DNA of 23,187 bases from a virus. The notes below the pieces were generated by a model. The model saw nothing but the letters and a program-made list of their open reading frames with translations, did no database searches and was not told the DNA's origin. Made by a program: the position numbers and the translations under genes. Positions 2,866 to 23,187 of the stretch are shown one piece after another. Location: the UHGV virus genome UHGV-0778869. One strand, written 5' to 3'. Each line of letters begins with the position of its first letter. Positions within the stretch are counted from its first letter, which is position 1.

Positions 2866-3302
2866 GCAGCCCGATCTCCCCATCGCGCTTTCCATTCGAG
2901 AGCCAGTCGCGCTTCGTCTGACCACTTAACGCCACGCTCTGTACCGAATGCCTGTATAAGCTCTAATAGCTCCGCAAATTCGCTTACACGCATCCTGCTG
3001 GTTGACTGGCCTATTACCACAAAGCCATTCCCGGCAAGGTTAGGAACAACGTCCTGCTGCTTTAATGCAGCTGTAAAAACGCACTTCCAGCTTTCTGCAT
3101 CCAGCCAGCGACCATGCCATTCAACCTGACGAGAGACGTCACCAAGGCAAGCCCAAAGCTTTCGATTCTGGTCTAAGCTGCGGTTGCGTTCCTGAATGGT
3201 TACTACGATTGGTTTGGTTGGGTCTGGAAGGATTTGCTGTACTGCGTGAATAGCATTTTGCTGAAGTGCTGGAGATCGAATTTCAAAGGTCAGTTTTTTC
3301 AT
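2862..3302 (-). CDS. ninB: NinB / Orf recombination mediator (146 aa)
   Basis: From internal ATG at 3302: MKKLTFEIRSPALQQNAIHAVQQILPDPTKPIVVTIQERNRSLDQNRKLWACLGDV..., near-identical to lambda NinB as recalled; SD GAGAGGGAAG upstream. Confidence 0.9.
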   Translation of the reverse strand: MKKLTFEIRSPALQQNAIHAVQQILPDPTKPIVVTIQERNRSLDQNRKLWACLGDVSRQVEWHGRWLDAESWKCVFTAALKQQDVVPNLAGNGFVVIGQSTSRMRVSEFAELLELIQAFGTERGVKWSDEARLALEWKARWGDRAA

Positions 3303-3316
3303 GACTTCCCTCTCCC

Positions 3317-3350
3317 CCAAATAAAAAGGCCTGCGATTACCAGCAGGCCT
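3317..3350 (-). terminator. Intrinsic terminator between helicase and ninB (tR2-like position)
   Basis: On minus strand: stem AGGCCTGC (3350-3343) / GCAGGCCT (3334-3327), 8-nt loop, then TTTTATTTGG. Confidence 0.7.
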
Positions 3351-3378
3351 GTTACAAGCTCAGTGATGTAGATGGTCA

Positions 3379-4815: not shown

Positions 4816-5632
4816 CGTGTTCACCCTCACGAACTTTCAGGTAGGTATTATCGTTAAGCAGGAAATCAAATCCCTTTTTGTGCCAGACGGTTCCGCGTTG
4901 ATGGTTTTGGCGTTCTTCGAACATCCATCGGCAATTTTCGCCTACGTAGCTCAAATAATTTCTCCAGTCCTGCATCGTGAACCCATGCCCGTCAAGCTGG
5001 CGGGTTATCACTCCGGCTTTGCGCCAGAACGTTCGGATCTGGTTTTTACGCTTGTCATTCAGTGCGCGGATTCTTGGCGCTTCAGGAAGGATTTCGTGGT
5101 AAGCATCGACAACATCCTGACAGCTGACGGAAGGTTTTTTCTTGTCAGACTTTTTGTCTGCTGTGGCACTCTCTAATACGTCAGTATTAGAGATATTATT
5201 TATATTATTGTTTATGGACAACCGTTGGACAACCGTTGGACAATATCCGCTGAGAGCCGCGCCATCACTGGTGTTTGCGTTGGACAACTGTTGGACAACC
5301 GTTGGACAATTTTTTGCCTGAAAATCGTCATATTTAACGATTGTAAACAGGCTAAATTTCTTCCCCATCGAGCAAATATTAAGCATACCTTTCGACTCAA
5401 AAGTCCGTAATAAGCTCCGAACTTTGTTGTCGGGGATGAATGTTTCTCTGACCAGTGATGGGCGTCCAGTTATCATCTGACCGCGATCAACAGTTATCGG
5501 ACCGATATCCGTATTGACGACAGTAGATTCGTGATTAGCCTTGAGGATTAAGTGAAGCCAAAGATGTACTGCCTGAGAGTCCTTATAGAGCCTGCTGTCC
5601 ATAAACTGGCGGTGTATAGAGACATACCCCAT
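4805..5632 (-). CDS. Lambda O-like replication initiator containing the origin iterons
   Basis: Start at ATG 5632 (AGGAGG SD) or 5695 (AGGAG SD); iteron-encoded CPTVVQQLS repeats in the middle; C-terminal region resembles lambdoid O proteins. Confidence 0.75.
   Translation of the reverse strand: MGYVSIHRQFMDSRLYKDSQAVHLWLHLILKANHESTVVNTDIGPITVDRGQMITGRPSLVRETFIPDNKVRSLLRTFESKGMLNICSMGKKFSLFTIVKYDDFQAKNCPTVVQQLSNANTSDGAALSGYCPTVVQRLSINNNINNISNTDVLESATADKKSDKKKPSVSCQDVVDAYHEILPEAPRIRALNDKRKNQIRTFWRKAGVITRQLDGHGFTMQDWRNYLSYVGENCRWMFEERQNHQRGTVWHKKGFDFLLNDNTYLKVREGEHDDR
5213..5310. repeat. Origin iterons: six copies of 11-bp GTTGGACAAC(C/T) in two triplets (5213-5244, 5279-5310) separated by 34 bp, next to an AT-rich tract (5181-5212)
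   Basis: Direct tandem repeats read in the sequence, inside the O-like gene as in lambdoid ori. Confidence 0.8.
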
Positions 5633-5681
5633 ACTGGATGCCTCCTGATGTTGTACAGGGTTATGCCTGTAATCAGCTAAC

Positions 5682-5843
5682 TTAACGACGCCCATGTTTC
5701 ACTCCTGCTTTGGCTAGTCTGTAAACACCAACAAGGCGCTCTGCGAACGCCCTGTTATTTGCTGCGGCTACCACTAATCCCTCAGGTGAATCAGGGTGTC
5801 GAATCTCTTCTTTTTCCTGGTATTTCTTACGACGTTTTGTCAT
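5682..5843 (-). CDS. Hypothetical small basic protein (53 aa) between the cII-like and O-like genes
   Basis: ATG 5843-5841 preceded by AGGAG; MTKRRKKYQEKEEIRHPDSPEGLVVAAANNRAFAERLVGVYRLAKAGVKHGRR. Below the ORF-track size cut-off; found by hand. Confidence 0.4.
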   Translation of the reverse strand: MTKRRKKYQEKEEIRHPDSPEGLVVAAANNRAFAERLVGVYRLAKAGVKHGRR

Positions 5844-5877
5844 AATTACTCCTGTGGATTGATCCAGTCTTTCTACA

Positions 5878-6156
5878 TCAGGCCTCGAAGAATTCGCCGT
5901 TCTTCGGGGCTTTTTCTTTTGTCAGCATTCTGGCTACTTTCTTAGCCAGTTCCGCCAACTCCTCGTCTTCAACACCCCATTCAAGAACAGCAAGAAGCAT
6001 TCCCATTTTGGGGATGAAGCTGTCTTTCCATCGCGAAATTTGCGATTCATTAATCCCTAACGCGTCGGCAACCTTTCGCTGACCACGTACAGCAATTCGA
6101 TTCAGGATGTTGCTTGTAATTGCATTCGCTTTCTTGCGAGTACTTGTAAGTTGCAT
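5878..6156 (-). CDS. cII: CII-like transcriptional activator (P22 C1-like, 92 aa)
   Basis: SQISRWK and MLLAVLEWGV motifs shared with lambda CII; position between cro and O. Confidence 0.85.
   Translation of the reverse strand: MQLTSTRKKANAITSNILNRIAVRGQRKVADALGINESQISRWKDSFIPKMGMLLAVLEWGVEDEELAELAKKVARMLTKEKAPKNGEFFEA
6119..6132 (+). promoter_or_regulatory. Candidate pRE CII-binding site TTGC-N6-TTGC (TTGCTTGTAATTGC)
   Basis: Tandem TTGC tetrads 6 bp apart on the cI-sense strand inside the first codons of the cII-like gene, the lambda pRE arrangement. Confidence 0.6.
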
Positions 6157-6189
6157 ATGTAAGTATTTCCTTAACTAATAAGAAGTTAT

Positions 6190-6207
6190 GCGCATCAACT
6201 TATGCGC
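6190..6207 (-). terminator. Candidate tR1-like hairpin downstream of nutR
   Basis: Minus-strand RNA GCGCAU-AAGUUG-AUGCGC followed by AUAACUUCUUAUUAG; T-run imperfect. Confidence 0.35.
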
Positions 6208-6214
6208 GTTGTAT

Positions 6215-6258
6215 TCCCGCATTTCGGCGGGAATGAGGACCATGACTGTTAAAGAGCG
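6215..6258 (-). promoter_or_regulatory. nutR: boxA CGCTCTTTAACA plus boxB hairpin TCCCGC-CGAAAT-GCGGGA
   Basis: Read on minus strand between cro and cII-like; boxA resembles the E. coli rrn boxA; the identical boxA/boxB pair recurs as nutL. Confidence 0.7.
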
Positions 6259-6264
6259 GTGTTA

Positions 6265-6459
6265 CTATTTGTTTTTCTTGTTGCTTGGGAAAGGACGAAC
6301 TTCCTCTCCAATCACACTGCCATCAGGCTTTACCGTAACCATAATGTTACGGCCTGCCAGAATGGCCTTGCTGATAGCGCACTGGATTACACCAAAGTCA
6401 CTGGCTGCTTTAGCCTGTCCATGGATTTTGGCGTAATCGGCAAGTGTCATTCGAATCAT
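6265..6459 (-). CDS. cro: Cro repressor (lambda Cro fold, 64 aa)
   Basis: ATG 6459 with GGAGAG SD; product ...[41 protein letters not shown] parallels lambda Cro. Confidence 0.85.
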
Positions 6460-6488
6460 ATGCACTCTCCGTTATTAACCATGAACAA

Positions 6489-6559
6489 AGAATACTACAG
6501 GTATTCAAAGCAATCAATACTCAGGGTATTTTTAGTTTGAGTACCTTAGCTATTAGAAT
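6489..6559. promoter_or_regulatory. OR region: three 15-bp operators (6491-6505, 6516-6530, 6540-6554) overlapping divergent pR and pRM
   Basis: AATACTACAGGTATT, AATACTCAGGGTATT, AGTACCTTAGCTATT. pR on minus strand: -35 TTGATT (6517-6512), 17-bp spacer, -10 TATTCT (6494-6489). pRM -10 TAGAAT (6554-6559) would start transcription at the cI ATG. Confidence 0.65.
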
Positions 6560-6565
6560 TAAGCT

Positions 6566-7282
6566 ATGGAAAATAAAAAATCACTGACGACAGAACAGCT
6601 CGAAGACGCTAAGCGGCTTAAGGCTTTGTATGAGTCAAAAAAGAAAGAATTGGGAATAACCCAATACTCAATCGCTGATGAACTGGGTATCACCCAAGGA
6701 GCGGTAGGGCATTATCTTAATGGCAGAAACGCGCTAAACGTTGAGGTCGCATCTGGTTTTGCACGTTTGTTGCAAGTCTCAATTGCTGATTTTAGCCAGT
6801 CAATTGCTGCCAAGGTTGCAGAACAGGCAGAAAGCCTTAAGAGCGATGCCAACGTAAGGTATGCAGGGGAATACAGAGCAGGAAAGAGGTATCCGGTGTT
6901 AAGCAGTATCCAGGCTGGCTCGTGGTGTGAAGCATGCGAACCATACACCATTAAAGACATAGATGTTTGGCTTGAGTCTGACGCGCATATTCAAGGTAAT
7001 GCGTTCTGGCTTAAAGTGGAAGGTGATTCAATGACGGCACCGGTTGGGTTAAGCATTCCAGAGGGAACATTCGTTCTTTTCGATACCGGAAGGGAGGCGA
7101 TCAACGGCAGCTTGGTCATAGCAAAACTTTCTGACTCTAACGAAGCAACATTCAAGAAGCTGATAATCGACGGCGGAAATAAATACCTCAAGGGACTTAA
7201 TCCTGCATGGCCTCTCGTGCCAATCAATGGAAACTGCAAGATTATAGGCGTTGCAATTGAGACAAAACTAAGGCTGGTTTGA
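6566..7282 (+). CDS. cI: CI/C2-type prophage repressor (HTH plus S24 LexA-like autopeptidase, 238 aa)
   Basis: N-terminal HTH (ITQYSIADELGITQGAVGHYLNG); Ala-Gly cleavage site (SIQAGSW), catalytic GDSMTAP and FKKL; C-terminal half close to P22 C2 as recalled. Confidence 0.9.
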   Translation: MENKKSLTTEQLEDAKRLKALYESKKKELGITQYSIADELGITQGAVGHYLNGRNALNVEVASGFARLLQVSIADFSQSIAAKVAEQAESLKSDANVRYAGEYRAGKRYPVLSSIQAGSWCEACEPYTIKDIDVWLESDAHIQGNAFWLKVEGDSMTAPVGLSIPEGTFVLFDTGREAINGSLVIAKLSDSNEATFKKLIIDGGNKYLKGLNPAWPLVPINGNCKIIGVAIETKLRLV

Positions 7283-7299
7283 TCACGCAAGGGGCGATT

Positions 7300-7668
7300 A
7301 TGGTTGGAACCGCTATAGCAAGCTTTTTTGGGATGTTGGCAATCTCGACAATTTACGGCTTAGCGCATGCTTTTATTGCGAAATCTCTATCAGAAAAAAT
7401 AAGCCAGGCTTGGGCGCATAGATCAGCTCGTTTCATGATTCTGGTGATCATAGCAATACAAGGGATATCTGCATTTATCCTCTATGGATCAAGCTTATAC
7501 CTATTGTATCAAGGCGCGACATTTACGCCTTACACCAGTGATTACGGAACTCTATACGATGGTAGTGAAGACATCACTGTGGCTTGGATCGTCTTTGGTT
7601 TATCTATGGCCGTGTCTGTTGTAGCAGACATCATTAAGGTAATTATCGTCTTAACCTTCGCTGACTAA
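7300..7668 (+). CDS. Small polytopic membrane protein (about 122 aa) downstream of cI
   Basis: ATG 7300 with AAGGGG SD (alternative ATG 7279 overlaps the cI stop); three to four hydrophobic helices; same strand as cI. Confidence 0.6.
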   Translation: MVGTAIASFFGMLAISTIYGLAHAFIAKSLSEKISQAWAHRSARFMILVIIAIQGISAFILYGSSLYLLYQGATFTPYTSDYGTLYDGSEDITVAWIVFGLSMAVSVVADIIKVIIVLTFAD

Positions 7669-7754
7669 CCTATAATCCCGGCAGCAATAGCTATCGGGAT
7701 CCACTTCACATATCCCGCATAAAAAGCACTGAACAAGCAGACACCGAAAAAATA

Positions 7755-7841
7755 AATATCCTTTGTATTCATTTGCTTATCATTATTTCACCAAAAATAA
7801 ATACCTTGGGTATTTACACAATAAAATACCTACAGTATTCT
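7755..7841 (+). promoter_or_regulatory. OL region: three 15-bp operators (7755-7769, 7800-7814, 7825-7839) overlapping pL
   Basis: AATATCCTTTGTATT, AATACCTTGGGTATT, AATACCTACAGTATT. pL: -35 TTTACA (7813-7818), 17-bp spacer, -10 TATTCT (7836-7841). Confidence 0.6.
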
Positions 7842-7887
7842 TTAGCCATCAGCAGGACGCTGGAAGCCAAACGGAACAGATTGGCAG

Positions 7888-7928
7888 GCTCTTTAACATT
7901 GATGGGATTGTCCCGCCGAAATGCGGGA
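7888..7928 (+). promoter_or_regulatory. nutL: boxA GCTCTTTAACA (7888-7898) plus boxB hairpin TCCCGC-CGAAAT-GCGGGA (7911-7928)
   Basis: Same boxA/boxB as nutR, downstream of pL and upstream of the N-like gene. Confidence 0.7.
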
Positions 7929-8241
7929 ACCAAAGAGTAGTTGGCTTTGGGGTGACGTGAAGTGCAGCTGCACGACGGCAACCGGAAGATAAGCACCCGG
8001 CGCGCCACCGCCAAAGTCAATTCCATAGGCGTTATGCAGCCGCCACCATATTCAAGAAAGCTGCACAAGAGGTAGGAGGATTTATGTGAATACTTACATT
8101 CAATTGAGAGATTAATTAAATAGAACTGATCGAGCAGAGTCCATAAAGGCTCATAAATGCTCTTCCATCCCCGTCTAATTGGCGGGGAAGGAAACAACTT
8201 TGTAATAAAAAAATTCCAAAGTTGTTTCATCGGAGGTCAAC

Positions 8242-8514
8242 ATGACAGTAGTCATTACATATCTGGCTGACGATAACGCCAGAAATCGCCGCAGAGCACG
8301 CAGACAGGCTCAACGTGAACAGGCAATGCAAGAGCAGCGACTGGCGCGAAAAATTGCGCTAAAGCTCTCTGGTTGCGTCAGAGCAGATAAAGCAGCATCA
8401 CTCGGAAGCCTTCGCTGCAAGAAGGCAGATGAATGCAGTGGAAGTATTTGCCTGCCAAACGTAGCCATTTACTCGGCAGGCTACCGGAAATCAAAACAAC
8501 TGACAGCCAGGTAA
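8242..8514 (+). CDS. N-like transcription antiterminator with arginine-rich motif (P22 gp24-like, 90 aa)
   Basis: GGAGG SD; ARM NARNRRRARRQAQREQA near the N-terminus; C-terminal ...YSAGYRKSKQLTAR resembles P22 gp24 as recalled. Confidence 0.8.
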   Translation: MTVVITYLADDNARNRRRARRQAQREQAMQEQRLARKIALKLSGCVRADKAASLGSLRCKKADECSGSICLPNVAIYSAGYRKSKQLTAR

Positions 8515-8517
8515 GTG

Positions 8518-8742
8518 ATGAATCAGACATACATTCCATCATGCTTGAGAAATCTGCCAAAGCAGAAAGCAAAGCCCCGCAAGCAAGCCATAAAGGACGC
8601 TAAGGCAGAGGTTATTGATCAAGCAATACAATTGCTCAGGGAGGAGTTAAGAAGTGGCAAGCTCGAAGGAATGATGATGCCCTATCAGCGCGGATATCTT
8701 TCGGCGATTAGTAAGCTGGAAGTATTGAAGAGTGAATTATGA
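8518..8742 (+). CDS. Hypothetical protein (74 aa)
   Basis: ATG 8518 after AGGTAAG; MNQTYIPSCLRNLPKQKAKPRKQ...; ATGA overlap with the next gene. No family recognised. Confidence 0.5.
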   Translation: MNQTYIPSCLRNLPKQKAKPRKQAIKDAKAEVIDQAIQLLREELRSGKLEGMMMPYQRGYLSAISKLEVLKSEL

Positions 8743-9431
8743 ACTATCTGGAATTTCCGGATGGTTCATTGTTTTGGCAGCAAACCACTTATTTGAGAGG
8801 AATTAATATGTCATCAATCCGCTTAACTACGAGAATGAAAGAGAAAATCGCTCGTAACGCTTTAATTAAGTCTGGGGTTTTCACTGAGCTTGAAGAAGTA
8901 ACAAAGTTAAAGAGCCAGCTTGCACTTGACGCCAGAGTTATTGCGTTTGGCGGTAAAAAGAAAACTGAGGAAGTGGATCAGTTATCATCCAAGTTAGTAG
9001 CTATAAGTGAAGAACTTGAAAAACTGGGATGTTCATTTTACTCATACGATGTTCGTTCTACTTCAATTTATCTGACTGTATCTGGCAGAAGGGTTGGATG
9101 GCTTTCATATGGGGAAGACGGCAACGGCGAAGATATATTGCTCCCTACTCCGACCAAAGATAAATGCATGTTTGACGCAGAACACGAAATAACAAAAAGG
9201 TTTGATGAAATCTGCGCATTGCAACAAAAACTTGAAGCCAAGAAAAAGGATATCGAATCAAATGTATGGGCTGCTTTGAACTCAGTCACAACAGTTAAGC
9301 GACTTATTGAAGTTTGGTCTGAAAGCAAAGAATTGCTACCAAAAGAAGCAGATAAAGCAAGTACAGCACTTCCTGCTTTACGGGTAGAAGATTTGAATAA
9401 GATGATTGGACTTCCTTCCGAGGCCGCATAG
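8739..9431 (+). CDS. Hypothetical protein (230 aa; alternative start 8808)
   Basis: ORF with coupled start; internal ATG 8808 has a GAGAGG SD; stop lies inside the terminator hairpin. No family recognised. Confidence 0.55.
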   Translation: MNYLEFPDGSLFWQQTTYLRGINMSSIRLTTRMKEKIARNALIKSGVFTELEEVTKLKSQLALDARVIAFGGKKKTEEVDQLSSKLVAISEELEKLGCSFYSYDVRSTSIYLTVSGRRVGWLSYGEDGNGEDILLPTPTKDKCMFDAEHEITKRFDEICALQQKLEAKKKDIESNVWAALNSVTTVKRLIEVWSESKELLPKEADKASTALPALRVEDLNKMIGLPSEAA

Positions 9432-9448
9432 TCGGCCTTTATTTTTGG
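9421..9448 (+). terminator. Intrinsic terminator
   Basis: Stem AGGCCG (9421-9426) / CGGCCT (9433-9438), loop CATAGT, then TTATTTTTGG. Confidence 0.7.
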
Positions 9449-9565
9449 CACTAACAACAGAATAAACACAGCACTGTGTATTCATTCCAACGAGTGAATA
9501 CACGGAGCAATGTCGCTCGTAACTAAACAGGAGCCGACTTGTTCTGATTATTGGAAATCTTCTTT

Positions 9566-9594
9566 GCCCTCCAGTGTGAGGGCAATTTTTTTTG
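9566..9594 (+). terminator. Intrinsic terminator immediately upstream of the next gene's RBS
   Basis: Stem GCCCTC / GAGGGC with loop CAGTGT, then AATTTTTTTTG; GGAGG SD follows at 9597. Confidence 0.7.
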
Positions 9595-9605
9595 ATGGAG
9601 GATAT

Positions 9606-10574
9606 ATGAGTGAAGTAACAGATTTAGTTGTTATTGAAAAAGCAAATGCAATGACTGTATTTCAGTCTGCCGACCAGATTGAAGAAATCCTTCAAAAGGT
9701 TGAACGTGAAGTTATGTCCTTTGTGCCTGATATCACAACGGCAAAGGGCAGAAAGGAGATCGCTTCTCTGGCGTATAAAGTTGCGCAGACGAAAACATAT
9801 CTCGATGGTCTTGGCAAAGACCTTGTTGCTGAACTGAAGGAAATTCCAAAGCTAATTGATGCCAACCGCAAGACAGTGCGTGATCGCCTTGATGAGCTGA
9901 AAGCCAAGGCGCGCCAGCCTCTTACTGATTATGAGGAGGAACAGGCACGGATTAAAGCCGAAGAAGAAGCTAAGGCAGCAGCTGAAGCTCTCGCAAAGCA
10001 AATTGAGTCTGACCATGAAATAGCGATTTTGATGGATCGCGAATTTGACCGCCAAAGAGAAGAGGCAAGACTCAAAGCGGAGCAGGAAAAGCGAGAGCAT
10101 GAAGAACGCTTAAAAAGAGAAGCTGAAGAGAAAGCCAGAGCAGAAGCCGAAGCAAAGGCAAAAGCCGAAATTGAAGCAGCAGCAAGGCGAGAAGCAGAAG
10201 CTAAGGCCGCAGCGGAACGTGCAGAGCGTGAACGTATTGAAGCCGAGCAACGAGCACAGCGCGAAGCAAAAGAGGCAGCAGAACGAGCTGAAAGAGAAAA
10301 GCAGGCGGCAATTGAAGCAGAACGCCGAAAAGCACAGGAGGAGGCTGAACGAATCCGGCGCGAGGCTGAAGCAAAAGAGCAAGCAAGAATAGCAGAAGAA
10401 AAAAGAATCAAGGACGAAGAAGAGCGTAGAGCAAAGGATAAAGCTCACCGGAAAGAAGTAAATAACAAAATACTTGCTGACCTTATCAAGGTTGGCGCAT
10501 CAGAAGATGTTGCTAAAAATATCATAACAGCCATCGTAAAAGGCGAAGTATTCGCAACAAAAATAACCTACTAA
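9606..10574 (+). CDS. Hypothetical protein (322 aa): N-terminal globular domain, long Glu/Ala/Lys/Arg-rich coiled-coil, short C-terminal domain
   Basis: ATG 9606 with GGAGG SD; the low-complexity centre (EAEAKAKAEIEAAARREAEAK...) generates several spurious antisense ORFs; sits upstream of the Sak4-like gene. Confidence 0.7.
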   Translation: MSEVTDLVVIEKANAMTVFQSADQIEEILQKVEREVMSFVPDITTAKGRKEIASLAYKVAQTKTYLDGLGKDLVAELKEIPKLIDANRKTVRDRLDELKAKARQPLTDYEEEQARIKAEEEAKAAAEALAKQIESDHEIAILMDREFDRQREEARLKAEQEKREHEERLKREAEEKARAEAEAKAKAEIEAAARREAEAKAAAERAERERIEAEQRAQREAKEAAERAEREKQAAIEAERRKAQEEAERIRREAEAKEQARIAEEKRIKDEEERRAKDKAHRKEVNNKILADLIKVGASEDVAKNIITAIVKGEVFATKITY

Positions 10575-10598
10575 TAAAACCAACATAAGGAACCACCC

Positions 10599-10745
10599 AT
10601 GATTTACGCAATCGCGGGAGGCGCTCGCATGGGTGCCTTCCAACTAAATGAATCTTTACTTGAACGAATCACCCGTAAATTACGTGACGGATGGAAACGA
10701 CTCATCGACGTACTTAATCAGCCAGGAGTTCCAAAAAATGGATAA
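10599..10745 (+). CDS. Hypothetical small protein (48 aa)
   Basis: ATG 10599 with AAGGA SD 7 nt upstream; MIYAIAGGARMGAFQLNESLLERITRKLRDGWKRLIDVLNQPGVPKNG. Below ORF-track cut-off; found by hand. Confidence 0.4.
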   Translation: MIYAIAGGARMGAFQLNESLLERITRKLRDGWKRLIDVLNQPGVPKNG

Positions 10746-10851
10746 AACACTTATGGCTATCCAGACTAAATTCACTATCGCCGCTTTTATTGGCGATGAA
10801 AAGATGTTTCGTGAGGCCGTCGAAGCCTACAGAAAATGGAGGTCAAAATGA
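10738..10851 (+). CDS. Hypothetical small protein (37 aa)
   Basis: ATG 10738 overlaps the previous ORF end; MDKTLMAIQTKFTIAAFIGDEKMFREAVEAYRKWRSK; the upstream extension of this frame (10648) overlaps the 48-aa ORF. Confidence 0.4.
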   Translation: MDKTLMAIQTKFTIAAFIGDEKMFREAVEAYRKWRSK

Positions 10852-11036
10852 TTCCGGTAGAACTGGCGAAAACTCCAGAGTTAAGTCGATTAAAAAGAGA
10901 ATATCACATTGCTGAGGCTCGTTACTGGCGTAAAGCGGGAGATAAATCAAAGAAACAACTTTGCTTATGGCAGGCACAAAGAGAGCGCATGAATGAGCGT
11001 GAGTTTCTTTCCTCCCCATCCGAATTACCATTCTGA
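10848..11036 (+). CDS. Hypothetical small protein (62 aa)
   Basis: ATG 10848 with GGAGG SD and ATGA overlap with the previous ORF; MIPVELAKTPELSRLKREYHIAEARYWRKAGDKSKKQL... Confidence 0.5.
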   Translation: MIPVELAKTPELSRLKREYHIAEARYWRKAGDKSKKQLCLWQAQRERMNEREFLSSPSELPF

Positions 11037-11044
11037 GGCAAATT

Positions 11045-11746
11045 ATGGGAACTGCGACATTAATACTCGGTGAATCTGGCACCGGAAAATCAACCAGCAT
11101 GAGAAATATCAATCCAGAGGAAGCAATACTTATAAAACCAATAGGCAAGCAGCTTCCATTTAAATCAAAAGACTGGCTGGCATGGGATGCCAGAGCAAAA
11201 AAAGGAACCGTAGTTACCACTGACAAATGGGACGTAATAGTTGCCGTAATTAAGCGTGCTCACGAATACGGGAAAAGAATCGTTATTGTTGATGACTTCC
11301 AGTATGTGATGAGCAATGAGTTTATGCGCCGCTCAGAAGAAAAATCGTTTGATAAATTCACTGAGATAGGCCGCCACGCATGGGAGGTGATTAAGGCTGC
11401 ACAGGATGCACCTGATGACCTGAGAGTCTATTTTCTTGCGCACACCGAAGAAACCCCTATGGGGCGTGTGAAAATGAAGACTATCGGCAAAATGCTGGAC
11501 GAGAAAATCACTGTCGAAGGCATGTTTACTATAGTTCTTCGCACCCTTACCCGCGATGACCAGTTCTTTTTCACCACGAAAACAACGGTGCAGACACTGT
11601 TAAATCCCCAATGGGAATGTTTGATTCTAATGAGATTGATAACGATCTCTCTTTCGTCGATGCCACTGTTTGTGATTACTACGGCATCAATAATGTTCAT
11701 CAAATTAAGGAAAACGCCGCATGAGCAACGTGATTTTTACTTATAA
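11045..11746 (+). CDS. Sak4-like RecA-fold ATPase (AAA_24-type), probably frameshifted near 11560-11590; intact-frame end would be 11724
   Basis: Walker A GESGTGKST, Walker B IVIVDDF. After ...DQFFFTTK the in-frame tail looks non-protein-like, while the -1 frame reads NNGADTVKSPMGMFDSNEIDNDLSFVDATVCDYYGINNVHQIKENAA and ends in a stop that overlaps the next ATG. Confidence 0.7.
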   Translation: MGTATLILGESGTGKSTSMRNINPEEAILIKPIGKQLPFKSKDWLAWDARAKKGTVVTTDKWDVIVAVIKRAHEYGKRIVIVDDFQYVMSNEFMRRSEEKSFDKFTEIGRHAWEVIKAAQDAPDDLRVYFLAHTEETPMGRVKMKTIGKMLDEKITVEGMFTIVLRTLTRDDQFFFTTKTTVQTLLNPQWECLILMRLITISLSSMPLFVITTASIMFIKLRKTPHEQRDFYL

Positions 11747-12308
11747 CGAAGAAGCAGCACTGACCGCAGGGCAAGGTGGTTTTATTAACGAAACTGGTGC
11801 TCATATCATTACCATTACTGAAGCAGAACTAAAGCAATCAGAAAAAGGAGCCAAATTTATTGAGTTTTCTGGCGAATCTGACGACGGACGTAAAATCCAA
11901 TATCTTAGCGTCTGTGTTCAGAAAAATGACGGAACGGAAAACAAATTTGGCGCAAATGTCGTTCACGCCATGATGGGGTGTGCCGGGATTGGACAATTAA
12001 CGCAACATATGGTTTCCGCCAGTAAATTTGTTGCTCCTGAGTTTCATGGAAAGAAAATCGGGTTAGTGCTCCAGAAAGTATTAACCACAAACAAAAAGAC
12101 TGGCGCAGACAGCTACCAGATGGAAATACGCATCCCGTTTATTGCACAAACAGGTCAAACCCTTAAAGAAAAGGCGGAAGGCAAGCAACCAGAAACTATC
12201 GCCAACATGGTTGCCAGCCTCAAAGATAAAGACAATCGCTCTAAAAACGTAAGCCAGAATCATGCAGATGATTATGGTTACAGCCAGAACGATTACCCTC
12301 CTTTCTGA
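11721..12308 (+). CDS. Putative ssDNA-binding partner of the Sak4-like ATPase (195 aa)
   Basis: Immediately downstream of the ATPase; acidic C-terminal tail ending ...DDYGYSQNDYPPF, reminiscent of SSB tips (E. coli SSB ends DDDIPF). OB fold not verifiable by eye. Confidence 0.5.
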   Translation: MSNVIFTYNEEAALTAGQGGFINETGAHIITITEAELKQSEKGAKFIEFSGESDDGRKIQYLSVCVQKNDGTENKFGANVVHAMMGCAGIGQLTQHMVSASKFVAPEFHGKKIGLVLQKVLTTNKKTGADSYQMEIRIPFIAQTGQTLKEKAEGKQPETIANMVASLKDKDNRSKNVSQNHADDYGYSQNDYPPF

Positions 12309-12331
12309 TTATTGAAAATAAGGCTCCCATT

Positions 12332-12628
12332 ATGCCAGCGCCTCTGTATGGTGCGGATGACCCGCGCAATTGCTCCGGTAGCTCCAAGGCGGAGGTGCTG
12401 GAAAATATCAAAAACAATTTCGACGCGTTTCTTGCTCTGACACCAGAAACAAAAGCAGAACGGATGTACCGACGCGATATACAACTCGCGCTAAAACAGG
12501 AGAAGGACCGAACAAACGAAACAGCAATGAGACCGTTGCGAAAAGCGACAATAGACAAATTCCCTGAATATATCGACCCGCGCCTGCGTAATTACCGATC
12601 ACGCTATGGCGCTATCAGTAATGACTGA
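12332..12628 (+). CDS. Hypothetical protein (98 aa)
   Basis: ORF with weak AAGG SD; [34 protein letters not shown]...; no family recognised. Confidence 0.45.
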
Positions 12629-16781: not shown

Positions 16782-18848
16782 TTATTGGAATGAAATACTG
16801 CACTCCATTTCAGTTGGTGACCCTGTATTGCTGTACGTTACAATAGTCCATGAGGTTGCAGATACCTTGTTTACGACCATGTATCTCCCAGTTCCTGGTG
16901 ACGTAAATGTATATCCTGCAGTCGACATGTCTGTCGGAAATGTTATCACCCAAACACCAGGTGATGTTTTGGATGCTAAGCATCCAACTGCTGATAACAG
17001 AACTCCTGAGCTATTTATATTTACAACACATGGTGAGTTTATAATCTTAACAACACCTGTATCAAGTATGTATGTATCAAACACTTTACCTATTCTGTTG
17101 CCATTTAGGTATGTAACTGCTGTTGCTGACAATCCAGCCCTGTTCCTTAAAACAGTTGAAACTCCAAGCCCTGAGCAATTAGTTACTTGCTGATCTGATA
17201 CCATTCCTGAAGTTGAACTAAATTGCTCCATAATTGCATCAACGGTATTTGACCCATTAAAGCAGTTGAATGAAACGTTCTCTAACTTATTCCTTCTCAC
17301 TGACTTTCCTGAGTCAGATCTAACGTTGCAGATTCTGTTGTACTGCCCTGGAGTGTTTATTTGTACAAATCCACCTCTTATCTTGTTGTCAAGACAGTCT
17401 GTTAATGATTCGCTATGGTCGTATAAATCATACGCTCTTTTAAAATCACCATTATTATTCATGAAGATTAAAACATCTTCTATGAGATTGTTACTACAAC
17501 CTTGAATAGCTATCACGCTATCATTACCATTAAAAGCACCATTTGCGATACTGGTAAATTTACCGCCAACAATCTTGCAGTTAGTGCATCCGCGTGAGAA
17601 CTTAATGTTATTGTTACCACCTATAGCGCCATCGACATTCCCAAGAACTGATGAATTATGAATTCCTTCACAGTTTATGAACTGAAAATCAGTAGTAGGA
17701 AATCCAATACCGTCAGCAGAAGTAGCATGATAATTAACAAGCAGCCCGTTTTCTGCGTATCCTCCCTGAACAAACCCACCCTTAACTCCAAGTATCTCCA
17801 TGTTACCACCGGCCTTAGATTGTCCTATAAACCTTGGCATGGTTATCTCAGGGTCAATAGCGCCGATAACGACAAAGTTACCATGGTTAGCTCCCTTATG
17901 ACCGGTTCCATCAAAGGTGCATCTAATGGCCCTTATCTTTGATCGTCTAGTTGAATCAGCAGATCCGTAAGAAGTATTTCCCATTCTTAATGGCGTCACA
18001 TCTGAATCACCATTGAAATACAGATCTCTTACTTCTATATTATTCCCTGTTAATTCTATTGCACCAAAGCTCTTATTAAACAATGATCCTGTCAAAGTTA
18101 TTCTAGCCTGATTGATGGCTAATATTTTTTTATTGTCAAGGCTTGATATTACGTTATTTGTTATTTTTACATTTATATCTATGTAAATCTCATCAAAATA
18201 TATTAACAACATACTGATTAGTGATGTTATATCACTGTCAGGTGATGTCCAGTCGCTAATTTTTGTGCTTCTAGACCGTGTTCTTTTTTCAAGATAACAA
18301 GTTACCCCGCCAATCACTGCGGAGTTTTGACTCAATGACGATATTGTTCCGCTTGCTGGAGGTGATATATAAAATAATCCAAATTCAGTGTGAATATCTG
18401 TTGTACCAACAGGAATAATATCTCCAACCTTTGCCGTAGCTCTTACATCATTAGGGAATACAACCCCTGGCAATATTTCGTCACGCATTTCATTGACGTA
18501 TACTCTTAACTGGTCAGGGTCATACTTCAACACATTAGGAAAATAGAACTGCTGCGCACCATATGCATCATAAACAGCCATCGAATGACCTTGCACGGTA
18601 ACGAATTTGGCAATCTGTCCGTTATATACCGGGTAACCAGCAGCGTTAATGATGATTGGTTGCGAAACAGGAACGTGAGAACCGTCTTCGTTCTCCACAT
18701 AAACCTGAATCTGGTTTTCAGGATTTACCGGATCCGTGTCAATTTTACCGATATAAATTTTGCCATTGGCTACGGCTTTAAAAGAACGAGCCATAGTGAA
18801 GAGTTGCGAAGGCATGCTTACCACAACATTTGCGGTGATATCTGACAT
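16782..18848 (-). CDS. Tailspike protein: P22-type N-terminal head-binding domain fused to a distinct beta-helix receptor-binding domain (about 688 aa)
   Basis: ATG 18848 with GGAG SD; N-terminus [43 protein letters not shown]...NVLKYDPDQ parallels P22 gp9 residues 1-110; the rest is Gly/Asn-rich repeats typical of right-handed beta-helix depolymerases and unlike P22 gp9. Confidence 0.85.
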
Positions 18849-18969
18849 TTCATTGCTCCAGACGAATGATATGATGCAACCATGATGTGATTGCATACCG
18901 AAATGGTACTATTGAGTATTTATCCAGTAGGTTACGATGCCATTCCACCCAACTGGTGAGGCATCAAGG

Positions 18970-19813: not shown

Positions 19814-19891
19814 ATGCAGAGGGATACGATAAACCTCGCGTTCTACATATTTGGTTTTTGCACGTTCCTGGTGTTTGAAAGGCTATTCTGA
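19814..19891 (+). CDS. Candidate hydrophobic mini-peptide (25 aa), weakly supported
   Basis: MQRDTINLAFYIFGFCTFLVFERLF; weak SD; 3' end overlaps the convergent ejection-protein gene. Confidence 0.2.
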   Translation: MQRDTINLAFYIFGFCTFLVFERLF

Positions 19892-21880
19892 CAACGAATC
19901 AGACTTCGCACCCTGCGTCAGTGCATTAATCGCTTTTTGCGCTTGCTGCATGGCTTTCTCAAACGCTGTCGATCCGCGTTGTGTGTTTGCCATTCGTAGC
20001 ATTGCATTTCTGAATGGCTCACTCTCATAGGCGCGAGTAAGAAGTCCGTAGCTTACCGCTGCGCCAGTTGTCGCCGGGTTCATTGCTGTCCCATACCCGA
20101 TAATGAACGGGATGGTTTGCTGCCCTGTTGGTGTTGTTACTGCCGCTTTTGCAGCCTGCTGCGTGGATTGCAGGTAGTTTTTCAATCCTTTCAGATAAGC
20201 AGCGTCCTGCCCCTTAAATGTGATGCCAGTCTGGTTTTGCAGGATGTTAAGCTGTCGAAGGAACTGATCAGGGGAACCCCCTGATTTCTCCATCGCCTTT
20301 CCAATGATGCCATTGCGCATTTGCGCCCTGCCAACACGACCAACTGAGTTATACAGCGTCTTAATTTCCGATTTGTTCTTGCTGAATAGCATGTTGTTGA
20401 CAACTTCCGGCGTCAGATCGCCTTTCATGAGAACATTCTTCAGCCTGGTATTCTTTAGTTTCGCCGCTTCGTTAGCGTAGACGGCATTGGCCTGCTGATA
20501 TTTACGGAGAGTATCGTTGCCAAGATTCTGACCAATGGCACCATTGATATCGTCTGTCATCGCCTTGTAAACGCGCTGAATGGCAGCATCGGAACGGTTT
20601 GGTAACACTGGTCGCTCCCCCTTCACGTCCATTCTGAACTGGCTGCGCAGATCGCTTAATTGCTTCAAATCCAGATTTACCGGACCATCAGGACTAGCAT
20701 TGCGAACAAGCTCATCACGATAGGACTGAAGTTTTGAAATAGTCTCGTTATCAGCAACCTTACCAAGCTTCTGCAGGTTAGATATTTCTGTATCAATCTG
20801 CTGAATTGCTCGCGCAGGCTGAATGTTTACTCCAGCCATAGCATTCTGAACCTGCTCCAGTCGATTACCGGCGGCACGACGAATTCCTGATGTTTTCGCT
20901 TTAAGGCTGTCAATAACAACCGCTGGATCATACTCACCGAATTTATCGGCAAATCTCTGCACCAACTGGCTTCTCGCTTCCTGTTGCGTTGCTCTCATTC
21001 CGCTTGTGCCAGCCAGGGGGATATTTTCTGCTGTAGTCTGCGCCATTTTCCCGACGCGGGAAGTAGGCTGTAACAGGTCTGTGGTGTGCAGAGGAACTCC
21101 TTCACGCTCTGCAAACCTGATAGCCTGTTGAGCTTCTGGTGCTATCGAACCACGAACACCACGATAAGCAGCACCTAATCCACGTCCGGCAGCGTTAATA
21201 GCACCGCCAGCCAGCACACCAACGCCTAAATCGGTGGCGAGTGCTTCCGCATCATCTTTCGCACTGTTTGCAGCAAGTGATCCAACTGCGTTTTCTGCTA
21301 GAAGACGAGTTGCAACCTGAGCAATTCGACCAGCAAGTGTTGGTGCCTGTGTTGCCGCTCTCTCAACGCCAGCAGGAGTGAGGTAAGGCAATGCTTCAGC
21401 AAATACCCTTCCCTCTGTCGTTTGTGGAGTCAGCGCGCCTTGCTGAAGGCCAAAGTCCTGCTCTAATCCCTGCGTTGTTACTCGTGGCGCTGGTTGATAT
21501 GTCCCATCGCCAATTCCGAGTTTACCGCCAGCCCAAGCCGCCGCGCTTGTTACAGCATCGGCAACTGATGCAGGTATGTTTGCCACGTTCACGCCAGCCT
21601 GCACCAGTCCGCGACCAGTTTCTTTCACGGCTTCGCCAAGATCAGACATAAATCCACTTTGCTGTGGTTGTTGCTGTGCTACTGGTTGCTGTGTCTCCAC
21701 TGGCTGCACAGATGGCAATGGATAGGCAGCATAGAAAGCTTGCTTAGCCTGCTCTGCATTTTCTCCGGCTTGCGGGGCAACGACTTCTTTGAAGTATTGC
21801 TCCTGAGCCTGCGCTTTTTGTTCTGGTGCTAACGCCTGATACTGTGGAGAGGCGATAACATCTTTCCATGCTTTAGCCAT
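19883..21880 (-). CDS. Ejection / DNA-transfer protein (P22 gp16 position, 665 aa)
   Basis: Large Ala/Gln/Gly-rich protein upstream of the immI-like region; start overlaps the upstream gene stop (TAATG). Confidence 0.7.
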   Translation of the reverse strand: MAKAWKDVIASPQYQALAPEQKAQAQEQYFKEVVAPQAGENAEQAKQAFYAAYPLPSVQPVETQQPVAQQQPQQSGFMSDLGEAVKETGRGLVQAGVNVANIPASVADAVTSAAAWAGGKLGIGDGTYQPAPRVTTQGLEQDFGLQQGALTPQTTEGRVFAEALPYLTPAGVERAATQAPTLAGRIAQVATRLLAENAVGSLAANSAKDDAEALATDLGVGVLAGGAINAAGRGLGAAYRGVRGSIAPEAQQAIRFAEREGVPLHTTDLLQPTSRVGKMAQTTAENIPLAGTSGMRATQQEARSQLVQRFADKFGEYDPAVVIDSLKAKTSGIRRAAGNRLEQVQNAMAGVNIQPARAIQQIDTEISNLQKLGKVADNETISKLQSYRDELVRNASPDGPVNLDLKQLSDLRSQFRMDVKGERPVLPNRSDAAIQRVYKAMTDDINGAIGQNLGNDTLRKYQQANAVYANEAAKLKNTRLKNVLMKGDLTPEVVNNMLFSKNKSEIKTLYNSVGRVGRAQMRNGIIGKAMEKSGGSPDQFLRQLNILQNQTGITFKGQDAAYLKGLKNYLQSTQQAAKAAVTTPTGQQTIPFIIGYGTAMNPATTGAAVSYGLLTRAYESEPFRNAMLRMANTQRGSTAFEKAMQQAQKAINALTQGAKSDSLSE

Positions 21881-23187
21881 TAATCACCCCATAGTGAAGA
21901 AAAGTTACTGCCAGTAGTAGATTGTTGCCCTGGCATATTCTGCACCGGCTCCTGATAATCAAACTGTTTTTTAACAGTGCTCAACTTGCTTTCAAGCTGA
22001 TTTCTAATCTTTCCGATAGAGTCACGAAAAGCCTTTTCACTCATTTTGGGGCTTAGGGCACCAACCGCATCGGATAATTTTTTACCCTCAGCATCTGAAA
22101 GAGCCCCCATACCCTTAAGGGACTGCACCATAGGAAGGAATGTTTGAGCTTTAAAGGTGTCGAGCCTTGCTTCAAAGTTAGCTGCATCAGAGCCAGGAAC
22201 TGTCGGAAACGCTGAGCGAATTCCTACTGCTTTTGAAAGGCCTGGGCTTTGCTCTATCTCGTTGAGAGAATCAAGCGCTGTGCTGAACGTATCAACTGCA
22301 CCCTGAGCGGCGGCCTGCCTGTCAGCGCGGGCTATGTCAGCCTTTTGCCGAACATCTGCCTGTTTCTGTTTTAGCTCTTCAAGCTTTAACTGATTGCTTT
22401 CTCTGGCTATCTGTCTGTCCAGAGCCTTTTCTTGTAATTCTGCTCTTTGTATTTCTCGGGAAAGAGCAGCATTCTGTGCGCTGATGTTCTGTCCACGTAT
22501 CTGGATGTCCTGACCTCGAGCTGTTAGTGCTTCTCCTGCCTGATTGCTGCGGATTGTCTCTGCCAGTCTGCCTCGGTCAATCTCACGACCAGCCATCTTG
22601 TCCTGAACATTGAAGTAATCAATCGGACCAAGAGCAGCCATTCCAAGGTGATCAACAAACTCACCAAATCCTGAAGGATTCTGCTGATACATCTGAGCAA
22701 CGTTGTTAGGGTCAACACCGACGCGATTCAGTTCCTTGGCGTTGTTTTGCAGCCATGATTGCATTGCTTCTGGAGATGATGATGCAAGGCGAGCGCCAGC
22801 CGCTAAGGTGCCGATAGAATTGCGCTGGTCTTCATCAATGAACCCCATGCCTTTACGAATAGATTCAATCTGGTCTGGATATTGAGTAGCCAACTGACGC
22901 AAAGCTCCGCGATCACCAGACGCATAACCCCTCCGTAGCGTAGTTCCGCCATGCGTAGCGGTGCTGAACGAACGGAAGTGCTCCCGACCGAGCGAGATAC
23001 CCACGAGGAAGCAAGGCGGAGGGCTTTGCCCACACCGCACATAAACGCTTGACTCTGCGCAGCAGTGCCAAACACCGCTTTTTGACCGAGCGACCGAGGG
23101 TGCACGGAGAGAGTGAAGCTGAGCGGAGGATGGCGGATGCGTAGCGTAGGAGCGTGGCTGCGGTGGTCTGAGCATAGCGAAGTCCAC
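21880..23187 (-). CDS. Ejection protein (P22 gp20 position), N-terminus beyond the window edge
   Basis: Open frame to the window edge; residues encoded from about 22900 downward are protein-like (coiled coil, Ala/Gln-rich); the segment 22900-23187 is compositionally anomalous. Confidence 0.6.
   Translation of the reverse strand: MDFAMLRPPQPRSYATHPPSSAQLHSLRAPSVARSKSGVWHCCAESSVYVRCGQSPPPCFLVGISLGREHFRSFSTATHGGTTLRRGYASGDRGALRQLATQYPDQIESIRKGMGFIDEDQRNSIGTLAAGARLASSSPEAMQSWLQNNAKELNRVGVDPNNVAQMYQQNPSGFGEFVDHLGMAALGPIDYFNVQDKMAGREIDRGRLAETIRSNQAGEALTARGQDIQIRGQNISAQNAALSREIQRAELQEKALDRQIARESNQLKLEELKQKQADVRQKADIARADRQAAAQGAVDTFSTALDSLNEIEQSPGLSKAVGIRSAFPTVPGSDAANFEARLDTFKAQTFLPMVQSLKGMGALSDAEGKKLSDAVGALSPKMSEKAFRDSIGKIRNQLESKLSTVKKQFDYQEPVQNMPGQQSTTGSNFSSLWGD

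What the first reader, a model, noticed from the sequence alone, without database searches (positions are those of the whole stretch)
22900..23187. Compositionally anomalous GC-rich segment with short direct repeats inside the gp20-position ORF
In the last 290 bp the reading frame of the ejection-protein ORF gives Cys/His/Pro/Ser/Arg-rich text (LRPPQPRSYATHPPSSAQLHSLRAPSVARSKSGVWHCCAESS...) unlike the rest of the protein, and a second minus-strand frame is also open. The DNA carries direct repeats ATGCGTAGCG (22951-22960, 23137-23146) and CGTAGCGTAG (22934-22943, 23140-23149). This could be an insertion (small non-coding element, intron-like or repeat element), a frameshifted N-terminal region, or simply a divergent N-terminus.
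Basis: seen in the sequence. Interest (0 to 1): 0.5.

Follow-up and report, generated by a model that had tools for sequence, protein, structure and literature searches.

The report
Foreign repeat DNA on contig end
The odd GC-rich last 260 bases are not part of the phage ejection-protein gene: they are one period of a structured tandem repeat from an unrelated small gut element of Segatella (Prevotella), most likely stuck onto the end of this E. coli/Shigella phage contig by a sequencing or assembly chimera.

Summary
Up to 22927 the window is a Sf6/P22-like phage. Positions 79-22927 match a 37.5-kb contig from run ERR975140 with no mismatches and two homopolymer indels, and that contig carries an intact 431-aa gp20.

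From 22929 to the window end the DNA is 98-99% identical to the repeat array of CYGL01000545.1. This is a 14-kb circular element from the assembly that also holds fragments of the same phage. The element belongs to a large family of 10-14 kb human-gut replicons, and one integrated copy sits beside a Segatella copri-type gene.

The tail covers almost exactly one repeat period. It enters in the middle of a conserved helix, with no microhomology, and stops at the contig end. Nothing like it occurs in 5,426 E. coli genomes, and no Rfam family matches it.

Best explanation (about 0.85): a chimeric contig end, not an insertion, intron, frameshift or divergent N-terminus.

By-product: the donor's 257-nt repeat unit is strongly structured. 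It has 65 predicted pairs, 25 with compensatory changes, and 98.8% of cells paired. I found no description of it.

The parts
21880..22927 (-). Authentic part of the gp20-type ejection protein gene (Sf6 gene 12 homologue). It encodes residues equivalent to Sf6 gp12 84-431 plus the stop codon.
   Evidence: 97% DNA identity to Sf6. No mismatch with ERR975140_63 over this stretch. Pfam PF16928 Inj_translocase matches residues 88-229 of the window ORF. Alignment to Sf6 gp12.
22927..22929 (.). Breakpoint. 22927 is the last phage base and 22929 is the first donor base. The C at 22928 matches neither parent (the phage has G, the donor has A).
   Evidence: Three-way comparison of the window, intact phage L003 and donor L063. 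BLAST ends at 22927 and starts at 22929. There is no microhomology at the join.
22929..22997 (+). 3' end of one donor repeat unit (type A, about model positions 189-257). It starts inside the 3' arm of the long helix (CCCTCC) and contains the motifs CGTAGCGTAG, ATGCGTAGCG and CCGACCGAGCGAGA.
   Evidence: nhmmer with the profile of 44 units: model positions 180-257, E=8e-19. 99.3% identity to L063 147-1. Structure.
22998..23009 (+). Short spacer between two tandem units (TACCCACGAGGA).
   Evidence: Same spacer as in the L063 array. It lies between the two nhmmer hits.
23010..23187 (+). 5' 178 nt of the next tandem unit (model positions 3-180).
- Box hairpin GCGGAGGGC-TTT-GCCCACACCGCA at 23016-23039.
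- Second hairpin at about 23049-23071.
- 5' arm of the long helix at 23149-23166.
- Terminal loop TCTGAGCATAGCGAAGT at 23167-23183.
- First 4 nt (CCAC) of the 3' arm, where the window ends.
   Evidence: nhmmer E=7e-53. Box pattern match. 98.3% identity to L063 14292-14055. Helix assignment from RNAalifold and pair counts on alignment A3.

Best explanation
The last 260 bases are a chimeric contig end. The window is an assembled contig of a Sf6-like (Lederbergvirus) phage of E. coli/Shigella from a human-gut dataset.

At 22927/22928 the contig leaves the phage. It continues into one period of a GC-rich tandem repeat array that belongs to an unrelated 10-14 kb circular or integrative element of a Segatella/Prevotella-type host. 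That element is present in the same dataset.

The join was most likely made in vitro, by a chimeric library fragment or read (ligation or amplification template switching), and then used by the assembler to extend the contig. Extension stopped after about one repeat period, either because the tandem array cannot be resolved or because a single read ended there.

The Cys/His/Pro/Ser/Arg-rich 'protein' and the extra open frames are by-products of reading the complement of a T-poor, GC-rich non-coding repeat.

**Shown:** the foreign origin of the tail, the donor's identity, the position of the breakpoint inside a donor helix, the existence of an intact sibling genome, and both parents in one assembly.

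**Inferred:** that the join arose in vitro or in silico rather than in a cell.
For: 1. **An intact sibling genome exists.** Window 79-22927 is collinear with Logan contig ERR975140_63 (37.5 kb), with no mismatches and two homopolymer indels. That contig continues through an intact 431-aa gp20, gp7 and the head genes.
2. **The junction is private to this window.** The junction 30-mer is absent from IMG/VR. No GenBank phage continues past 22927. The chimeric ORF product is not on record.
3. **The donor is identified and co-occurs with the phage.** The tail is 98-99% identical to both ends of CYGL01000545.1 (L063), and the next-best of the fetched loci (120 or more) is 91-92%. The same assembly (GCA_001292545.1) also holds CYGL01001796.1, a fragment of this phage.
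4. **The breakpoint is not an element boundary.** It lies inside the 3' arm of a covarying helix in the middle of a tandem array, with no microhomology and one orphan base. In an integrated copy (L148) the array is interior to the element, so the junction is not an attachment site.
5. **The tail is about one repeat period.** It spans 259 of the 266-nt period, running from model position ~189 round to 180, and then the window ends.
6. **The hosts differ.** The integrated copy is flanked by a gene whose >=90% identity cluster includes a TolC family protein of Segatella copri. Neither the repeat nor the donor's Rep-like gene matches any of 5,426 complete E. coli genomes, and the donor's 406-aa structural gene has no match in PLSDB plasmids.
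7. **These units also turn up as stray sequence.** A 286-nt contig at 0.87x coverage in a Novosphingobium isolate assembly is the same unit.
Against: - No reads or coverage data were available, so the number of molecules that support the junction is unknown.
- The window's source contig was not found in any searchable collection, so I cannot prove that 23187 is a contig end or name the assembler used.
- A de Bruijn assembler would need real k-mers across the join; the parents share only 7 nt (TAGCGTA) nearby. At least one physical or read-level chimera must therefore have existed, and sequence alone cannot tell whether it formed in a tube or in a cell.
- The host assignment rests on one integrated family member, a 64%-identical homologue of the donor's structural protein, and on a 90%-identity protein cluster name.
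Confidence: 0.85

Rival explanations
1. The join is a real molecule. A defective Sf6-like phage genome, or a packaged or free DNA hybrid, underwent illegitimate end-joining-type recombination that fused gp20 to DNA of the Segatella-type element in the gut.
For: At least one read-level join must exist, because the parents share no k-mer long enough for an assembler to invent it. Both parents are present in the same dataset.
Against: - The hosts are in different phyla: Enterobacteria versus a Segatella copri-type Bacteroidota.
- No trace of the donor was found in the E. coli genomes or the plasmid database searched.
- gp20 is an ejection protein that P22-like phages need for infection (background knowledge), so the product would not be viable.
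- The phage with intact gp20 is present in ERR975140.
- The breakpoint has no microhomology and the sequence stops after one repeat period.
Confidence: 0.08
2. The structured repeat unit is itself a small mobile element (MITE-like, intron-like or homing) that inserted into gp20. The window simply ends before the second junction.
For: The unit is compact and highly structured, and it occurs in variable copy number (3-7) within arrays.
Against: - The entry point is in the middle of a helix (model position ~189), not at a unit boundary.
- The tail runs on through a spacer into a second tandem unit, exactly as in the donor array.
- In every replicon examined in detail (L001, L010, L063, L148), and wherever full type-A units were found, they lie in the array of this family, antisense to its genes.
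- There is no Rfam intron or ribozyme match.
- No copy was found in any other P22-like phage or in E. coli.
Confidence: 0.04
3. The segment is a genuinely coding but divergent or frameshifted N-terminus of gp20.
For: The frame stays open to the window end.
Against: - All three minus frames are open, a consequence of composition.
- The translation has no protein homologue among 5.8 billion proteins.
- It shows no similarity to the Sf6 gp12 N-terminus.
- Pfam profile positions 1-74 are missing.
- The DNA is 98-99% identical to a non-coding repeat array of another replicon.
Confidence: 0.01

Closest known systems
Chimeric reads and contig ends in amplified or ligated virome and metagenome libraries (for example multiple-displacement-amplification chimeras, Lasken & Stockwell 2007; cited from my own knowledge, not read here)
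   Same: - An abrupt switch between two unrelated genomes that co-occur in the sample.
- Little or no homology at the join.
- The join sits at a contig end.
- The partner is an abundant, repeat-rich, hairpin-forming sequence.
- The true path through the gene exists in another assembly.
   Different: Classical MDA chimeras are mostly inverted joins within one template with short microhomology. Here the join is between two replicons with no microhomology and one orphan base, which looks more like fragment ligation or template switching. The library method of this dataset is unknown to me.
P22 gp20 / Sf6 gp12 ejection (injectosome) protein, Pfam PF16928 Inj_translocase
   Same: Window residues 88-435 are a normal member. 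DNA is 97% identical to Sf6, and the Pfam match covers profile positions 75-217.
   Different: The first ~83 residues, with profile positions 1-74, are missing and replaced by non-homologous sequence.
Single-strand origins (ssoA type) of rolling-circle plasmids. This is only a functional analogy for the donor's repeat unit, drawn from my own knowledge.
   Same: - A strand-specific, non-coding, structured unit of about 250 nt with a long imperfect hairpin.
- The terminal loop carries AGCGA/TAGCGA, which resembles the ssoA CS-6 box TAGCGT.
- The replicon encodes a Rep-like protein and SSB, and L063 also encodes a UvrD helicase.
   Different: - The units are in tandem arrays of 3-7.
- The T of TAGCGA is not conserved: T, C or A.
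- The folding strand appears to be antisense to the genes.
- No sequence homology to any known sso was tested or shown.
Rfam structured RNA families (large ornate phage-associated RNAs such as GOLLD and ROOL, introns, ribozymes)
   Same: Phage- or prophage-borne, GC-rich and strongly covarying structure.
   Different: No Rfam 15 model matches the window tail. In the L001 array only weak miRNA/sRNA matches far below the gathering scores appear at E<=1. The unit is 257 nt and tandemly repeated.

Membership tests
P22 gp20 / Sf6 gp12 ejection protein (Pfam PF16928 Inj_translocase) | Full-length match to the Inj_translocase profile from its N-terminal positions | tested here: not met
   The window ORF matches profile positions 75-217 only (residues 88-229). 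The intact sibling L003 matches positions 1-217. The tail has no similarity to the Sf6 N-terminus.
P22 gp20 / Sf6 gp12 ejection protein (Pfam PF16928 Inj_translocase) | Synteny: located between the gp7-like and gp16-like ejection genes | tested here: inconclusive
   The gp16-like gene follows at 19883-21880. The gp7 side is lost because the contig leaves the phage at 22927. It is present in Sf6 and in L003.
Type-A structured repeat unit of the Segatella-type 10-14 kb gut elements (defined here, alignment A3) | Significant match to the unit profile in the correct order and orientation | tested here: met
   nhmmer: 23010-23186 matches model 3-180 (E=7e-53), and 22919-22996 matches model 180-257 (E=8e-19).
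Type-A structured repeat unit of the Segatella-type 10-14 kb gut elements (defined here, alignment A3) | Box hairpin GCGGASGGC-N3-4-GCCSACACCGCA at the start of the unit | tested here: met
   The pattern is found at 23016-23039. The hairpin is supported by a G-C to C-G compensatory pair in 18 of 44 copies.
Type-A structured repeat unit of the Segatella-type 10-14 kb gut elements (defined here, alignment A3) | Complete long helix (helices 5-10) closing the unit | tested here: not met
   Neither copy in the window is complete. The first lacks everything 5' of model position ~189, and the second is cut at model position 180 by the window end.
Type-A structured repeat unit of the Segatella-type 10-14 kb gut elements (defined here, alignment A3) | Native context: a tandem array next to the Rep-like gene, antisense to the element's genes | tested here: not met
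   In the window the units abut a coliphage gene. Native arrays are seen in L001, L010, L063 and L148.
Group I / group II introns and other Rfam families | Covariance-model match | tested here: not met
   cmscan of 22700-23187 at E<=1 gave 0 matches. The L001 array gave only chance-level miRNA/sRNA matches far below the gathering scores.
Insertion sequence / MITE | Defined element ends (terminal inverted repeats) at the junction and a target-site duplication | tested here: not met
   The junction lies inside a helix arm in the middle of a unit. Only one junction is visible, so a target-site duplication cannot be tested. No transposase is present and there is no copy in E. coli.
Integrase-mediated (att site) integration of the donor element | Junction at the element's attachment site | tested here: not met
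   In the integrated copy L148 the element spans roughly 2.0-12.5 kb of the locus and the array is interior, at 6570-7924. The window junction is inside the array.

The most novel reading that the evidence does not exclude
The join itself is an artefact, but the 260 nt are one period of a structured element class for which I found no description. The units are 257 nt long and sit in tandem arrays of 3-7 copies. They have three small hairpins and a long bulged helix kept by many compensatory changes. They lie antisense to the genes of abundant 10-14 kb Segatella-associated integrative replicons that my searches did not find in the IMG/VR viral collection. The units would act as a non-coding RNA, or as single-stranded-DNA replication or packaging signals.
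Probability: 0.5. Interest if true: 0.55.

Novelty: not a real feature. Interest (0 to 1): 0.15.

Why it matters
**For this window.** The ejection-protein gene has no insertion, intron or novel N-terminus. Positions 22928-23187 should be trimmed, and the ORF annotated as a 5'-truncated gp20 gene.

**As a practical warning.** Abundant, hairpin-rich repeat arrays from small gut replicons can end up on the ends of unrelated phage contigs. They also turn up as stray contigs in isolate assemblies. There they mimic 'compositionally anomalous' gene segments with long open frames.

**The by-product may be of real interest.** The donor family is widespread: the structural protein has at least 2,368 homologues and more than 120 contigs were fetched. 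It was not found in the viral collection scanned (IMG/VR). It carries a strongly covarying 257-nt tandem element with no Rfam family.

Tried and rejected
- **Rfam scans.** No family matched the window tail, and the L001 array gave only chance-level matches.
- **tRNA/tmRNA scan.** Nothing in the window or in L001.
- **E. coli genomes.** Megablast and blastn of the tail against 5,426 complete genomes gave nothing. The donor's Rep-like gene also gave nothing.
- **IMG/VR scans.** Four patterns were tried (a 37-mer, a 21-mer, the junction 30-mer and the box pattern) and all returned 0.
- **Protein search with the tail's translation.** No homologue. The exact chimeric ORF product is not on record.
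- **GTDB genome scan with the box pattern.** Mostly single chance matches in high-GC genomes. Only a 10.2-kb MAG contig and a 286-nt stray contig are real.
- **Donor structural protein against PLSDB plasmids.** No match.
- **Classifying the donor by structure.**
  - The AlphaFold model of the 406-aa protein has mean pLDDT 60.7.
  - PDB sequence searches found nothing for the Rep-like protein and only Ig-like (intimin/Big_2-type) domain matches for the structural protein.
- **Literature searches.** Searches for ERR975140, CYGL01, GCA_001292545 and DUF6266, plus a general search on Segatella copri prophages, found nothing useful.
- **Microhomology at the join.** The only shared string (TAGCGTA) lies 4-8 nt beyond the breakpoint and does not explain it.
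- **ssoA CS-6 resemblance.** This is a lead from memory only. The T of TAGCGA is not conserved and the folding strand is unexpected, so I do not claim membership.

Full report
**1. What is in the sequence**

It is the third gene in a P22/Sf6-type late block:
- tailspike, 16782-18896;
- gp16-like gene, 19883-21880;
- gp20-like gene, from 21880 onward.

The compositional break is real, but it sits at 22927/22928. The last 260 nt have 61.9% GC and only 15% T on the + strand. The rest of the ORF has 48.0% GC and the whole window has 45.6%.

All three minus-strand frames are open across the tail, and ORF 22803-23105 is listed. This is what a T-poor + strand gives and is not evidence of coding. The core 8-mer GCGTAGCG occurs 4 times in the window against 0.31 expected.

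**2. Homology to gp20 stops dead at 22927**

- Megablast and blastn against 50,697 phage records align the window to Sf6 (97%), CurroJimenez, VSe13 and about 15 other P22-like phages. Every alignment ends at query position 1128, which is window 22927.
- The pairwise alignment with Sf6 shows near-identity up to ...CAGACGCATAA and noise afterwards.
- At the protein level the match starts at Sf6 gp12 residue 84 (YASGDRGALRQL).
- The 87-residue 'N-terminus' has no similarity to the Sf6 N-terminus and no homologue in the 5.8-billion-protein collection.
- Pfam Inj_translocase (PF16928) covers only profile positions 75-217 in the window ORF. It covers positions 1-217 in an intact sibling.

A divergent or frameshifted N-terminus is therefore excluded.

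**3. A contig of the same phage has an intact gene**

An exact look-up of the gp16-like protein returned Logan contig ERR975140_63 (37.5 kb). A look-up of NinG returned the same contig plus ERR975139_192 and CYGL01001796.1 from NCBI assembly GCA_001292545.1.

Window 79-22927 is collinear with ERR975140_63, with no mismatches and two single-base indels in A-runs at 4010 and 11582. Beyond the point equivalent to 22927 that contig continues through a complete 431-aa gp20, then gp7 and the head genes. The break is thus private to the window. The junction 30-mer is absent from IMG/VR, and the chimeric ORF product is not on record.

**4. Where the tail comes from**

The only GenBank phage hit for the tail is MT836516.1, an unverified 10.4-kb 'Bacteriophage sp.' from human faeces. 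The tail matches (87%) inside a 2-kb, 62%-GC, non-coding, repeat-rich region of an otherwise AT-rich genome.

I derived a box conserved in all copies, GCGGASGGC-N3-4-GCCSACACCGCA, and used it to scan metagenome contigs. Most of the hits that prove to be real are from human gut. Many are about 10 kb, with 3-7 boxes at 250-300-nt spacing, often at both contig ends, which suggests circular genomes. Coverage reaches thousands-fold.

The best match to the tail is CYGL01000545.1 (L063, 14.3 kb):
- 99.3% over window 22929-23076;
- 98.3% over window 22949-23187;
- the next-best locus is 91-92%.

L063 comes from the same assembly set (CYGL01) that holds a fragment of this very phage.

**5. Anatomy of the join**

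In L063 the sequence is a tandem array with a 266-nt period. A profile of 44 distinct 'type A' units places window 23010-23186 on model positions 3-180 (E=7e-53). It places 22929-22996 on about positions 189-257 (E=8e-19).

The tail therefore enters the array inside the 3' arm of the unit's long helix (...CCACCGCAGCC-A|CCCTCCGTAGCG...). It runs through the unit end and a spacer into the next unit, and it stops 8-9 nt short of a full period, just after that unit's terminal loop.

At the join there is no microhomology, and base 22928 (C) matches neither parent. The nearest shared string, TAGCGTA, lies 4-8 nt downstream. It cannot explain the join and is far too short for a k-mer assembler.

**6. 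What the donor is**

The family members examined (L010, L063, L001, L148) have all genes on one strand:
- a 522-525-aa protein weakly similar to a phage replication initiator;
- SSB;
- an M15 peptidase endolysin;
- a 385-406-aa protein with DUF6266 and Big_2 domains.

L063 also has a tyrosine integrase and a UvrD helicase.

The 406-aa protein has at least 2,368 homologues in metagenomes. MT836516 is its only match among GenBank phages, and it has no match in PLSDB. No box match exists in the IMG/VR copy.

An 81-kb contig (L148) carries an integrated copy, with the array interior to the element at 6570-7924. It is flanked by a TolC-family gene whose >=90% identity cluster includes 'TolC family protein [Segatella copri]'. 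Neither the repeat nor the donor's Rep-like gene matches any of 5,426 complete E. coli genomes.

Structure prediction of the 406-aa protein was of low confidence. It matched only Ig-like domains, so the virion type remains unknown.

**7. Best explanation**

These facts together point to a chimeric contig end:
- the phage with an intact gene exists in ERR975140;
- both parents are in one assembly;
- the breakpoint is inside a helix in the middle of a tandem array, not at a unit end and not at the donor's attachment site;
- there is no microhomology;
- the tail is about one repeat period (or one read overhang) long and then ends;
- the hosts belong to different phyla.

At least one chimeric read or fragment was produced in library preparation and used by the assembler. 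Extension then stopped because the tandem array could not be resolved or because the read ended. The homopolymer indels between assemblies and the ragged ends of CYGL01001796.1 show that the data and the contig ends in this dataset are error-prone.

That the join was made in vitro is an inference. Without reads I cannot exclude a rare real hybrid molecule (about 0.08) or a mobile-unit insertion (about 0.04).

**8. By-product worth recording**

The donor's type-A unit (257 nt) is strongly structured. On 44 distinct copies, RNAalifold predicts 65 pairs, and 25 of them have compensatory double changes.

For that structure, 98.8% of cells are paired, against 31-47% when the partners are slid. The covariation score is 0.316 against at most 0.068 for the slid controls, and 0 of 500 shuffles reach the observed values. 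A single unit folds with z = -4.5.

The structure consists of:
- the box hairpin (with a G-C to C-G swap in 18 of 44 copies);
- a second hairpin with CC..GG, TT..AA and CTAG..CTAG variants;
- a third small hairpin;
- a long bulged helix whose distal 17 pairs vary almost freely while staying paired;
- conserved internal-loop motifs (GCGNAGCGTAGG / CGNAGCGTAGTT) and a conserved terminal loop (GAGCGNAGCGAAG).

There are two invariant G-U pairs and about 15 sporadic ones, against six A-C cells. This suggests that the folding strand is the window's + strand, which is antisense to the donor's genes.

No Rfam 15 family matches. Other unit types exist: type B, and units of about 160-nt and about 300-nt period.

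The function is unknown. My guess is a non-coding RNA, or a single-strand DNA signal linked to the adjacent replication genes. The resemblance of the loop to the ssoA CS-6 box is a lead from memory, not a test.

**9. Verdict**

As a feature of the phage gene it is not real: it is an artefactual junction. The tail should be trimmed and the ORF annotated as a 5'-truncated gp20 gene. Interest in the finding as posed is low. The donor repeat family deserves its own follow-up.

Noticed in passing
L010 1-10441; L063 1-14292; L001; L148 about 2000-12500: A large family of 10-14 kb circular or integrative human-gut elements. They encode a Rep-like 522-525-aa protein, SSB, an M15 endolysin and a DUF6266/Big_2 protein; some also have an integrase and a UvrD helicase. 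The structural protein has at least 2,368 homologues in metagenomes. The family has only one unverified GenBank phage record, and the repeat's box pattern has no match in IMG/VR. One integrated copy lies next to a Segatella copri-type TolC gene.
   Followed up: partly
Alignment A3 (for example L063 79-335 minus strand; L010 2548-2804 and 3164-3422 minus strand): The 257-nt tandem 'type A' unit has very strong covariation: 65 pairs, 25 compensatory, and 98.8% paired against 31-47% in slid controls. It has no Rfam family. It folds on the strand antisense to the element's genes. Its function is unknown.
   Followed up: partly
L010 about 3423-3691 (minus strand); L011 10537-11025; L042 3209-3557; L083 7143-7647: Other unit types share the same box hairpin but have different bodies: type B (period 269-292 nt), and short units of about 160 nt and about 206 nt. 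Arrays mix unit types in a fixed order.
   Followed up: no
L001 5634-5846: Three tandem 71-nt repeats, each with a GC-rich hairpin (AGCCTGCGGTTGCGCTAGCAACCGCAGGC). They lie between the unit array and the Rep-like gene and may be iterons or an origin.
   Followed up: no
L131 (NZ_JAILXZ010000035.1, 286 nt, coverage 0.87): A tiny low-coverage contig in a Novosphingobium huizhouense isolate assembly is made of these gut-element repeat units (nhmmer 132 and 76 bits). It is presumably carry-over or contamination between sequencing libraries.
   Followed up: partly
window 4005-4010 and 11579-11582: The only differences from Logan contig ERR975140_63 are single-base length changes in A-runs. The one at 4010 splits the DnaB-like gene in the Logan contig (299 + 144 aa), whereas the window has one ORF (3379-4830). 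These look like homopolymer sequencing or assembly errors.
   Followed up: partly
window 1-100: Three independent assemblies of this phage all break within about 100 nt of window position 1: the window itself, ERR975140_63 (which starts at window 79), and CYGL01001796.1 (which ends about 17 nt beyond window 1 with ragged mismatches). This suggests a coverage gap, a repeat or a physical genome end there.
   Followed up: no
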